NCBI GenBank assembly: GCA_000004695.1
Contig: CM000151.3
Span: 128,001-192,000 of the forward strand
Direction of reading: 5' to 3'
Source: Dictyostelium discoideum
Taxonomy: Eukaryota
Length of the DNA stretch: 64,000 bases
Every line of letters begins with the position of its first letter. Position 1 is the stretch's first letter. The notes beneath the pieces are model-generated. The model made no database searches and was not told the origin of the DNA. It saw only the letters and a list, made by a program, of their open reading frames with translations. Below are positions 19,174-20,936 of this stretch, one piece after another. The position numbers were made by a program, and so were the translations under genes.

Positions 19174-20936
19174 TTAAATTTTTAAAATAAAATCTTTTAT
19201 ATTTTTATTTATCCATTTTAAAATATCATCTTCTTTAAAATTTGGATTTTCATATTGTAAAATTGTCATTGATTTCATTAAATTGGTAATATCAATAGAT
19301 TGATCTGGGAATAAATTTTTAATTTTCCTTCCATCAACTAATAAAGAAACCTTTTCAAAAGTGAAATTATCATCACTAAAAAGTTTAGTTAATTGATTTA
19401 ATACATCTAAAATTTCATTCTCTCTATCTGGATATTTCTCTAATAAATAAACTATTGAAATATTTAATGGAAAATTCCATTGTAAACCACCAGCTTTACA
19501 ATTTTTAAGTTCATGAAAAATTGAATATAAATTTGATTTATCATTTAAATTATTTAAATATAATTTAAAATCTTTTAATTGATTAATATTATTTGTATTA
19601 TTATTTGTATTATTATTTGTATCATTATTAATATTTAAAAATGATGAAATTAAATTATTAAAAAGTAATGATATATTTAAAGTTGAACCAGTATTTGTTG
19701 AAAATTGATAATTAATTAATGATTTTATAGTTTTTGAAGTATTATCTTTAAATCCTAAATGAGCATCAATAAAAAATGGTAAAAATATACAACATTTATA
19801 AAAATCAATATTAAATAAATTATCATTATTATTATTATTTTGATTAATTAATATTTTTAAATATTTTAAAGATTTTTTAAATAATTCTTTAATAATTTCA
19901 TGGTCATTTATAATTTTATCAAAATCAATAATTGAATTAATTAAACCAGTATCGATTAAATAATCAATTGATTGAATTACTGATGACTTGTTTGACATCA
20001 TTAAATGAAATTCTTTATAGATTCTTTCTTTACTAACTTTATTTGAAATTAGTTGTTTATTAAGATTGAATTTAATTGTATTATAAAGTTGTTGTTCTAT
20101 TTGAAAACCTTGAAACCTACTTGCGAATCTGATCACTCTGAATGCTCTTAACGGGTCGTCTAGTAGTGTTTTCAGTGGTTCCAATGGTGTACGAATTATA
20201 GAATTCTCAAGATCACTTAACCCATATCCTGAATGGTCTTCAATCTTTAGTGTATTTAAATTATAAAATAATGAATTTATTGTTAAATCTCTTCTTAAAC
20301 AGTCTGATAATGGTGACCAACCGTAATTTCGGGTATTCTAGAATTCGGATCACTATATTCATCACTTCTTAATGAATTGAAATCAATTTGAAATCCATGA
20401 ATATTAATTGATGCTGTCTCTAAATGTTTTGATTTCTCTGGATTTCTTTTTATTAAATATTTTTTAAAAGATTCTTTATTAATTTTAAATTCTTCTATTA
20501 ATTTTATAAAATTAGTACCTGAAATATTACTTAATGCAATATCAATATCAATATCAATATCTTTTATTTGTTGTTGTTGTTGTGGTTGTGGTTGAGGTTG
20601 AGGTTGTTGTTGTTTTTGATTATCTAATAACTATTATAAAATTAAATAAAATAAGTAAAAAATTTTAAAATATTTTTTTAAAAAAAAAAAAAGAAAACTT
20701 ACTTTATCTCTAACCCAACCACCTGCAACTCTTAATTCAATATCATTTCTATTATTGAAAATTAATATGTTTTTTAAAAAATCAAATAATTTATTTTCTT
20801 CTGGACTAATTTGTATATTTTTTGTTGGAATTGAATTATTTGAATAAAATAATTTATTTAAATAATAACTATTATTATTATTATTATTATTGTTGAAAAT
20901 CTTTGCAGTCTTTTGGAATGCTGAAAGTATTTTCAT
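19174..20936 (-). CDS. CCA-adding tRNA nucleotidyltransferase. Exons on the minus strand are 20703..20936 and 19174..20630. There is an apparent -1 frameshift near 20318.
   Basis: Exon 1 ends ...IELRVAGGWVRDK, the GG.VRD motif of nucleotidyltransferases. Exon 2 has DIDIDIDIAL, then ...SDEYSDPNSRIPEI, and after the frame break SPLSDCLRRDLTINSLFYNL (the RRD motif B) ...DDPLRAFRVIRFASRF. The intron at 20631..20702 is GTAAGT...AATAG. The frame break is discussed in findings. Confidence 0.7.

What the first reader, a model, noticed from the sequence alone, without database searches (positions are those of the whole stretch)
20300..20340. CCA-adding enzyme gene has a 1-nt frame break inside a conserved motif
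On the minus strand the conserved block ...RIPEITVG / SPLSDCLRRDLTINSLFYNL is split between two frames. The sequence reads ...gaaattacggttggtcaccattatcagactg. One extra T (ggttggtTcacc) would restore ...EITVGSPLSDCLRRD..., exactly as in plant and fungal CCA enzymes. There is no room for an intron. This is either a base-call/assembly error or an inactivating mutation in an essential single-copy gene, which would be surprising. The break sits beside a small palindrome (attctagaat, EcoRI/XbaI sites).
Basis: partly seen in the sequence, partly recalled or inferred. Interest (0 to 1): 0.6.

Follow-up and report, generated by a model that had tools for sequence, protein, structure and literature searches.

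The report
Reference-sequence error in Dictyostelium cca2 gene
The one-base frame break in this slime-mould tRNA CCA-adding enzyme gene is really in the deposited AX4 reference sequence, but it is almost certainly a local base-calling error: a sister lab strain, wild relatives and the published active enzyme all have the intact gene.

Summary
The window is Dictyostelium discoideum AX4 chromosome 2, bases 128001-192000. [quoted passage not shown]

The frame break is real in the sequence. Frame A ends ...SRIPEITVGHHYQTV*. Frame B continues SPLSDCLRRDLTINSLFYNL.

The independent AX2-214 assembly reads ACAATTGGTACACCA where the window reads ACGGTTGGT-CACCA. That is two G-for-A differences and one missing A within 8 bases. 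Two diverged D. discoideum isolates and D. dimigraforme also encode ITIGTPLSD.

Across about 49 kb compared with AX2, this cluster is the only coding difference and the only indel outside an A/T-rich run or low-complexity tract.

The protein sequence that Erber et al. 2020 list for this gene also contains ITIGTPLSD. They report the recombinant enzyme as a full CCA-adding enzyme.

The AX4 RefSeq/UniProt model (XP_645671.1, Q55BE1, 542 aa) hides the error with a spurious 62-nt intron (20304..20365). This deletes 21 residues net, covering much of the segment between motifs A and B.

Best reading: a reference base-call error (about 0.85). A real mutation in the AX3/AX4 lineage (about 0.1) cannot be excluded without AX4 reads. 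The gene is not single-copy. Interest is low.

The parts
19174..20936 (-). cca2 gene (DDB_G0271378), a class II tRNA nucleotidyltransferase / CCA-adding enzyme; start codon at 20936, stop at 19174
   Evidence: Erber 2020 gives chr2 147174-148936 for DDB_G0271378 (1763 nt), the same length as this span. The flanking NAP protein is an exact match to AX4 XP_645670.1. PF01743 E=1.2e-18. The repaired product is 100% identical to AX4 P0123 outside the break region.
20703..20936 (-). exon 1 (78 codons), carrying motif A GGWVRD at 20706..20723
   Evidence: Direct reading and translation. The exon ends RVAGGWVRDK.
20631..20702 (-). genuine intron, 72 nt, GTAAGT...AATAG, 6.9% G+C
   Evidence: Splicing it restores GGWVRDK|LLD, as in the AX4, AX2-214 and diverged D. 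discoideum proteins and the solved homologues.
19174..20630 (-). exon 2. It carries the DxD carboxylates (DIDIDIDIA, 20535..20561), the loop segment between motifs A and B, motif B RRD (20287..20295) and motif D DDPLR (20146..20160). It is interrupted by the frame break.
   Evidence: Motif order is taken from PMC7947759.
20315..20322 (-). the lesion: window ACGGTTGGT-CACC versus intact ACAATTGGTACACC. G>A at 20322, G>A at 20321, and one A missing between 20316 and 20315.
   Evidence: Pairwise and multiple comparison with AX2-214 (L001/L002), two further D. discoideum isolates (L003, L004) and D. dimigraforme (L005).
20304..20365 (-). spurious 62-nt 'intron' of the AX4 RefSeq/UniProt model (GTGATG...TATCAG, 38.7% G+C). 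It replaces SDEYSDPNSRIPEITVG/SPLSD with a single N.
   Evidence: Splicing out exactly this span together with the real intron reproduces the 542-aa P0123 (XP_645671.1 / Q55BE1) residue for residue. Alignment gap.
20335..20344 (.). 10-nt palindrome ATTCTAGAAT (overlapping EcoRI and XbaI sites); incidental
   Evidence: There are 301 perfect 10-nt palindromes in the window. The sequence is unchanged in the intact AX2 allele.

Best explanation
The frame break is a local base-calling error in the deposited AX4 chromosome 2 reference. Three wrong calls fall within 8 bases: GG for AA, and one dropped A. It is not a property of the organism.

The real gene reads ...CCC GAA ATT ACA ATT GGT ACA CCA TTA TCA GAC TGT... 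(...PEITIGTPLSDC...). It encodes an intact 563-aa CCA-adding enzyme, CCA2.

Automated annotation of the erroneous sequence restored an open frame by inventing a 62-nt GT..AG intron. The RefSeq/UniProt protein therefore lacks 21 residues between motif A and motif B.

Shown here: the break itself; the intact alleles elsewhere; the exact origin of the annotated model; the intact sequence in the published supplement.

Inferred: that AX4 cells themselves carry the intact allele.
For: 1. The AX2-214 assembly (GCA_054883475.1, made from Nanopore plus Illumina reads; PMC12745789) descends, like AX4, from NC4 (my own knowledge). Across the whole 1763-nt gene it matches the window except for these three positions, and it is in frame.
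2. Two diverged D. discoideum isolates (ACAATAGGTACACCA) and D. dimigraforme (ACAATTGGTACACCA) share the intact state. The window allele is the lone outlier.
3. Across about 49 kb of window against AX2, every other difference is intergenic or lies in an A/T run or low-complexity tract. This is the only coding difference and the only indel outside such a tract. It is a 3-change cluster.
4. Several other small clusters show a G in the reference where AX2 has T or A (45765-45773, 45676-45677, 40044). This fits a recurring miscall pattern.
5. Saxer 2012 found that 1916 of 1917 candidate substitutions in AX4-derived lines against the reference were shared between lines. The authors read these as reference errors, founder differences or mutations from growing up the founder culture. 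They measured a mutation rate of only 2.9e-11 per site per generation. Real divergence between lab strains is therefore far too low to explain differences at about 2e-4 per site (inference).
6. Erber 2020's supplement lists the DDB_G0271378 protein with ...RIPEITIGTPLSDCLRRD... It matches the AX2 protein apart from small discrepancies typical of machine reading of the PDF (gaps of at most 2 residues). The paper reports that the recombinant enzyme adds a full CCA end.
7. Knock-outs of cca2 could not be obtained in Ax2. Its N-terminus works as a mitochondrial targeting signal. Both suggest a null allele would be costly.
8. Apart from this lesion the ORF has no other defect. Outside the lesion the whole gene, intron included, is base-for-base identical to AX2.
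Against: - No AX4 reads, ESTs or cDNA could be examined with these tools. Two protein searches found no read-derived fragments of this gene. The step 'AX4 cells are intact' is therefore inferred, not shown.
- AX4 descends from AX3. From memory, AX3 was isolated after nitrosoguanidine mutagenesis, which can give closely spaced mutations.
- The lesion sits in ordinary coding sequence (about 39% G+C locally), not in a hard-to-sequence homopolymer.
- Where Erber et al. got the intact sequence (dictyBase curation, Ax2 cloning or manual repair) is not stated.
Confidence: 0.85

Rival explanations
1. The lesion is a real mutation in the AX3/AX4 lineage. AX4 then makes only a truncated CCA2 (183 correct residues plus HHYQTV) and relies on CCA1.
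For: - The sequence is what the reference says, and the 2005 annotation was built on it.
- A second bona fide CCA-adding enzyme exists that accepts both cytosolic and mitochondrial tRNAs in vitro.
- cca2 mRNA is close to zero in growing cells (Fig. 3 legend), so loss might be tolerated in axenic culture.
- AX3 came from chemical mutagenesis (my own knowledge).
Against: - Three changes in 8 bases are very unlikely at a measured rate of 2.9e-11 per site per generation.
- Taking the intact allele as ancestral, the changes are AA>GG plus a 1-nt deletion. This is not the G:C>A:T signature typical of nitrosoguanidine (my own knowledge).
- There is no second lesion in the gene.
- Knock-out attempts failed in Ax2.
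- The N-terminus is a working mitochondrial targeting signal.
- The published DDB_G0271378 protein is intact.
Confidence: 0.11
2. The sequence is correct and the full-length enzyme is made by recoding: a programmed -1 ribosomal frameshift, or insertional RNA editing, at GGU|CAC.
For: The downstream frame is -1 relative to the upstream frame, and re-reading one base gives a colinear protein.
Against: - There is no X XXY YYZ slippery heptamer at A CGG UUG GUC.
- The 131 nt starting 12 nt upstream of the break and running about 120 nt past it fold no better than shuffles (z=+1.41; 184 of 200 shuffles fold at least as well).
- All related alleles simply have the extra base in the DNA.
- No nuclear insertional editing is known in Dictyostelium (my own knowledge).
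Confidence: 0.01
3. The annotated 62-nt intron (20304..20365) is genuine, and AX4 makes the 542-aa protein lacking the loop.
For: It has GT..AG ends and gives an open frame that exactly reproduces XP_645671.1 / Q55BE1.
Against: - It has 38.7% G+C, against 6.9% for the genuine intron 270 nt upstream and 20% for the exon.
- It removes 22 residues that align across this stretch with homologues of solved structure. These cover much of the segment between motifs A and B, where the B/A motif and flexible loop lie; their deletion is the hallmark of CC-adding enzymes.
- In the intact AX2 allele the same span is 63 nt and is annotated as coding.
- Splicing it from the intact allele would not be needed to keep the frame.
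Confidence: 0.02

Closest known systems
D. discoideum CCA2 (DDB_G0271378) as in AX2-214 KAM9951353.1 (ACTFIT_002031) and the supplement of Erber et al. 2020 (PMC7432833)
   Same: It is the same gene and locus, with the same flanking NAP-family gene. Protein identity is 100% outside the lesion. It has the same 72-nt intron.
   Different: The window has GG for AA at 20322/20321 and lacks one A after 20316. This splits the ORF. The intact allele encodes ITIGTPLSD where the window gives ITVG then a frame change.
Frameshift errors in draft or reference genomes bridged by spurious short introns in automated gene models
   Same: A single-base error is masked by a GT..AG 'intron' whose composition is exon-like and whose removal deletes conserved residues. 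The model is reproduced exactly by that splice.
   Different: Nothing unusual. The only specific consequence is that the deleted piece covers much of the segment between motifs A and B, where the elements needed for A-addition lie, so the database protein could be misread functionally.
CC-adding tRNA nucleotidyltransferases (loss of the B/A motif and flexible loop; Neuenfeldt 2008, as summarised in PMC7947759)
   Same: The annotated 542-aa AX4 protein lacks much of the region between motifs A and B, which is where CC-adding enzymes carry their deletions or deviations.
   Different: Here the deletion is an annotation artefact. The intact protein has the loop, and the paper reports full CCA addition by the recombinant enzyme.
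Programmed -1 ribosomal frameshifting sites
   Same: The two halves of a conserved protein lie in the 0 and -1 frames.
   Different: There is no slippery heptamer, no stable structure in the stretch after the break, and no conservation of the frame change in any relative.

Membership tests
Class II tRNA nucleotidyltransferase (eukaryotic-type CCA-adding enzyme) | Pol-beta-like head domain (Pfam PF01743 PolyA_pol) above the gathering score | tested here: met
   68.1 bits against a cut-off of 23, E=1.2e-18, covering the whole profile (1-126) on the repaired protein. Best solved relatives are 9kma_A (E=7e-52) and S. pombe cca2 and cca1.
Class II tRNA nucleotidyltransferase (eukaryotic-type CCA-adding enzyme) | Motif A GGxVRD plus the DxD metal-binding carboxylates | tested here: met
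   RVAGGWVRDKLL ... DIDIDIDIALS is read directly. The GGWVRDKLL part aligns identically and DIDIA aligns with the solved homologues.
Class II tRNA nucleotidyltransferase (eukaryotic-type CCA-adding enzyme) | [quoted passage not shown] | tested here: inconclusive
   The segment between motifs A and B, RSDEYSDPNSRIPEITIGTP, is present and colinear in the intact alleles. In the window sequence it is cut by the frame break. In the AX4 database model most of it is deleted. Motif roles are from PMC7947759. Erber 2020's Fig. S3 legend says both D. discoideum enzymes have these elements.
Class II tRNA nucleotidyltransferase (eukaryotic-type CCA-adding enzyme) | Motif B RRD and motif D (E/D)DxxR amino-acid template | tested here: met
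   CLRRDLTINSLFYN (RRD at 20287..20295) and LLDDPLRAFRVIRFASRF (DDPLR at 20146..20160) lie in the downstream frame.
Class II tRNA nucleotidyltransferase (eukaryotic-type CCA-adding enzyme) | Adds a complete CCA end to tRNA | not testable with these tools
   Literature only. Recombinant CCA2 adds CC with CTP and A with ATP, less efficiently than CCA1 (PMC7432833). The sequence listed in that paper's supplement is the intact one.
Programmed -1 ribosomal frameshift site | Slippery heptamer X XXY YYZ at the shift site | tested here: not met
   The site reads A CGG UUG GUC ACC in the downstream frame and ACG GUU GGU CAC in the zero frame. No such heptamer is present.
Programmed -1 ribosomal frameshift site | Stable downstream stimulatory RNA structure | tested here: not met
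   MFE is -14.6 kcal/mol against a shuffle mean of -19.1, z=+1.41.
Dictyostelium spliceosomal intron (for the annotated 62-nt span 20304..20365) | GT..AG ends | tested here: met
   GTGATG...TATCAG.
Dictyostelium spliceosomal intron (for the annotated 62-nt span 20304..20365) | Extreme A+T richness relative to exons, and a position that does not delete conserved coding sequence | tested here: not met
   38.7% G+C against 6.9% for the genuine intron of the same gene. The span encodes 22 residues that align with homologues of solved structure. It is annotated as coding in AX2-214.
Unitary pseudogene | Accumulated disabling lesions or relaxed constraint beyond a single defect | tested here: not met
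   Only one lesion. The rest of the gene is base-for-base identical to the intact AX2 allele.

The most novel reading that the evidence does not exclude
The break is real in AX4 cells. The most-used Dictyostelium reference strain would then carry a null allele of the paralogue whose N-terminus acts as a mitochondrial targeting signal (cca2), a gene reported as not deletable in Ax2. AX4 would survive on CCA1 alone. [quoted passage not shown]
Probability: 0.1. Interest if true: 0.45.

Novelty: not a real feature. Interest (0 to 1): 0.08.

Why it matters
As biology it does not matter much. It is most likely a three-base error in a Sanger reference published in 2002-2005.

Practically it is worth flagging. 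The RefSeq/UniProt protein for this gene (XP_645671.1, Q55BE1, 542 aa) is wrong in the catalytic head. It lacks much of the segment between motifs A and B, whose loss marks CC-adding enzymes. Anyone inferring activity, building alignments or trees, or ordering a synthetic gene from that record would be misled. The 563-aa AX2-214 protein (KAM9951353.1) is the one to use.

If, against the odds, AX4 reads confirmed the break, AX4 would be a natural cca2 null. That would bear directly on the open question of why Dictyostelia keep two CCA-adding enzymes.

Tried and rejected
1. **Read-level evidence.** The full-length protein search and a 133-aa query centred on the junction returned no D. discoideum read-derived (Logan or ENA) fragments of this gene. 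Logan transcript contigs do exist for another gene of the window. The exact 336-aa downstream ORF is not in the collection either. No independent AX4 evidence could be obtained.
2. **Literature.** I searched for lists of AX4 reference errors or resequencing variants. Saxer 2012 gives only the aggregate count. It allowed at most one mismatch per 31-nt read, so reads over this 3-change cluster would probably not have mapped (inference). No paper lists this site.
3. **Programmed frameshifting.** Rejected: no slippery site, no structure.
4. **A real short intron.** Rejected on composition and conservation.
5. **Palindrome as cause or signal.** Rejected: there are 301 such palindromes in the window, and it is unchanged in the intact allele.
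6. **A donor copy of the variant 13-mer elsewhere in the window** (gene conversion or mis-assembly). None was found.
7. **AX2 counterparts for the right end of the window.** Two anchor ORFs were not on record, so the baseline comparison covers window 1..48911 only.
8. **tRNA scan of the window.** No tRNA genes were found.

Full report
**What the window is.** The 257-aa ORF at 17979..18752 (minus strand) is an exact match to the NAP-family protein XP_645670.1 of Dictyostelium discoideum AX4. It sits on an 8.48-Mb contig, which is chromosome 2. Erber et al. 2020 place DDB_G0271378 at chr2 147174-148936. That is 1763 nt, exactly the span 19174..20936 here. The window is therefore AX4 chr2:128001-192000. 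G+C is 21%.

**Checking the observation.** On the minus strand the gene has three parts:
- exon 1 at 20936..20703, ending ...RVAGGWVRDK;
- a genuine intron at 20702..20631 (72 nt, GTAAGT..AATAG, 6.9% G+C);
- exon 2 from 20630.

The exon-2 frame reads ...FNSLRSDEYSDPNSRIPEITVGHHYQTV*. The -1 frame reads ...SPLSDCLRRDLTINSLFYNLNTLKIEDH... through to the stop at 19174. Re-reading one base after ggt (20318..20316) gives a 563-aa protein. It has a complete PolyA_pol head domain (PF01743, E=1.2e-18). It also aligns across the junction to solved plant and S. pombe tRNA nucleotidyltransferases; the only gap in that stretch is one residue about 10 residues upstream of the break.

**What the official annotation did.** The AX4 protein for this gene (P0123 = XP_645671.1 = UniProt Q55BE1, 542 aa) is identical to the repaired protein except in one place. 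There, SDEYSDPNSRIPEITVGSPLSD is replaced by a single N. I reproduced that protein residue for residue by also splicing out 20365..20304, a 62-nt GT..AG span. That span has 38.7% G+C, against 6.9% for the real intron and 20% for the exon. It encodes residues that align with homologues of solved structure. It is an artefact of a gene predictor bridging a frameshift. It also shows that the frame break is in the deposited reference itself and was not introduced later.

**Related sequences.** The protein search and cluster look-up found three more 'D. discoideum' proteins from the 2025 long-read assemblies of Holland et al. (PMC12745789).
- P0121 (ACTFIT_002031, 563 aa) is 100% identical to the AX4 protein outside the break and reads ...EITIGTPLSDCLRRD. 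Its assembly, GCA_054883475.1 (WGS prefix JBTAPE), is nearly identical to the window.
- Of the three isolates the paper finally calls D. discoideum, it says CR116C and OT3A are 'genetically diverged from AX4'. The WGS prefixes E, F, G ... M also follow the order of the paper's Table 1, with M = D. dimigraforme in ninth place. I therefore take JBTAPE to be AX2-214. This is an inference.

At the DNA level:

| Source | Sequence at the site |
|---|---|
| Window (AX4 reference) | ACGGTTGGT-CACCA |
| AX2-214 (L001/L002) | ACAATTGGTACACCA |
| Two diverged D. discoideum isolates (L003, L004) | ACAATAGGTACACCA |
| D. dimigraforme (L005) | ACAATTGGTACACCA |

The window differs by G for A at 20322 and 20321 and by one missing A between 20316 and 20315. 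The real residue is Thr (aca), not Ser. The preceding Val is also part of the lesion (Ile in every intact allele).

**How unusual the cluster is.** I aligned window 1..48911 to the AX2 contig (L006, L002, L007).
- About 60 differences were found.
- Nearly all are length differences in intergenic A or T runs.
- There are also about 17 substitutions. All lie outside the gene spans called in AX2, except the cca2 pair.
- The cca2 cluster is the only coding difference and the only indel outside an A/T-rich run or low-complexity tract.
- A few other small clusters also show G in the reference where AX2 has T or A (45765-45773, 45676-45677, 40044). This looks like a recurrent miscall pattern, although I cannot say which assembly is right at those intergenic sites.

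**Prior from the literature.** Saxer et al. 2012 resequenced three AX4-derived lines. They found 1917 candidate substitutions against the reference. Of these, 1916 were shared between lines, which they read as 'errors in the reference genome', founder differences or mutations from growing up the founder culture. They estimated 2.9e-11 mutations per site per generation. At that rate, real divergence among NC4-derived lab strains should be orders of magnitude below the roughly 2e-4 per site seen here. Most reference-versus-AX2 differences, and especially a triple change in 8 bases, are better explained as sequence error (inference).

**The gene product is known and active.** Erber et al. [quoted passage not shown]
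- DDB_G0271378 is the Q/N-rich CCA2. Its mRNA is induced at 4-8 h of development. It is less efficient but binds tRNA more tightly than CCA1.
- Their supplement lists the protein used for 'D. discoideum 2 = DDB_G0271378'. It contains ...RIPEITIGTPLSDCLRRD....
- Aligned to P0121, that listing shows only small discrepancies typical of machine reading of the PDF, with gaps of at most 2 residues. Against the 542-aa model it needs a gap of at least 13 residues.
- The paper reports that the recombinant enzyme, expressed from a codon-optimised ORF, adds complete CCA ends. It does not say which protein sequence that ORF encoded.
- They could not knock out either gene in Ax2.

There is a paralogue (cca1, DDB_G0293504, on chromosome 6), although the two may not be redundant.

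**Functional location of the break.** According to PMC7947759:
- the B/A motif lies downstream of motif A, and the flexible loop lies between motifs A and B;
- both are needed for adding the terminal A;
- their deletion is the hallmark of CC-adding enzymes;
- motif B contains RRD.

The break lies 7 codons upstream of RRD (20287..20295). The spurious intron removes much of the segment between motifs A and B, where those elements lie. The database protein could therefore be misread as a CC-adding enzyme.

**Rivals.**
- *A real AX3/AX4-lineage mutation* cannot be excluded, because no AX4 reads were reachable. I put it at about 0.1. The reasons are the triple change, the non-mutagen-like spectrum, the absence of any other lesion in the gene, and the apparent importance of the gene.
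- *Programmed -1 frameshifting* is rejected. There is no slippery heptamer, the stretch after the break folds worse than shuffles (z=+1.41), and all relatives simply carry the extra base.
- *The annotated intron being genuine* is rejected on composition and conservation.
- *The palindrome* is a chance feature: there are 301 such palindromes in the window.

**Verdict.** The feature is most likely not real biology, and the correct sequence is already public in the AX2-214 assembly and the Erber 2020 supplement. The useful by-product is a documented error in the AX4 reference and in XP_645671.1 / Q55BE1. Interest is low.

Noticed in passing
window 20304..20365 (minus strand): The AX4 RefSeq/UniProt model of DDB_G0271378 (XP_645671.1, Q55BE1, 542 aa) contains a spurious 62-nt intron that hides the frameshift. 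It deletes much of the segment between motifs A and B, so the database protein could be misread as a CC-adding enzyme.
   Followed up: yes
window 1..48911 versus AX2-214 contig JBTAPE010000001.1 (L006, L002, L007): About 60 differences between the AX4 reference and AX2-214. Almost all are homopolymer-length differences in intergenic A/T runs, usually shorter in AX2. There are also small intergenic substitution clusters where the reference has G and AX2 has T or A (45765-45773, 45676-45677, 40044-40053, 44792, 45106). Which assembly is right at those sites is unknown.
   Followed up: partly
PMC7432833 (Erber et al. 2020), section 2.2 versus Methods 4.7 and the Fig. 3 legend: The paper swaps the gene identifiers. 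Section 2.2 calls DDB_G0271378 'cca1'. The Methods, Fig. 1 and Fig. 3 call it cca2/CCA2, the Q/N-rich enzyme. The gene in this window is the Q/N-rich one, so it is CCA2.
   Followed up: yes
window 20850..20936 (N-terminus of cca2): [quoted passage not shown] Erber 2020 saw cytosolic localisation with N-terminal GFP fusions, and such a tag could mask a targeting signal. The two paralogues may therefore split cytosolic/nuclear and mitochondrial duty.
   Followed up: no
window 51519..52598 (minus strand); L008, L009: This 359-aa metallo-beta-lactamase-fold ORF is found exactly on Logan transcript-sized contigs (1.2 kb) from runs SRR26869268 and SRR26869256. Read-derived D. discoideum assemblies therefore exist in the collection, yet none covers cca2. 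Its low vegetative expression may be why.
   Followed up: partly
window 20535..20600 and 19570..19630 (minus strand): The coding simple repeats in cca2 (QQQPQPQPQPQQQQQ, DIDIDIDI, NNDTNNNTNNNTNN) vary in length between the AX4/AX2 allele and the two diverged D. discoideum isolates. The catalytic motifs are invariant.
   Followed up: no
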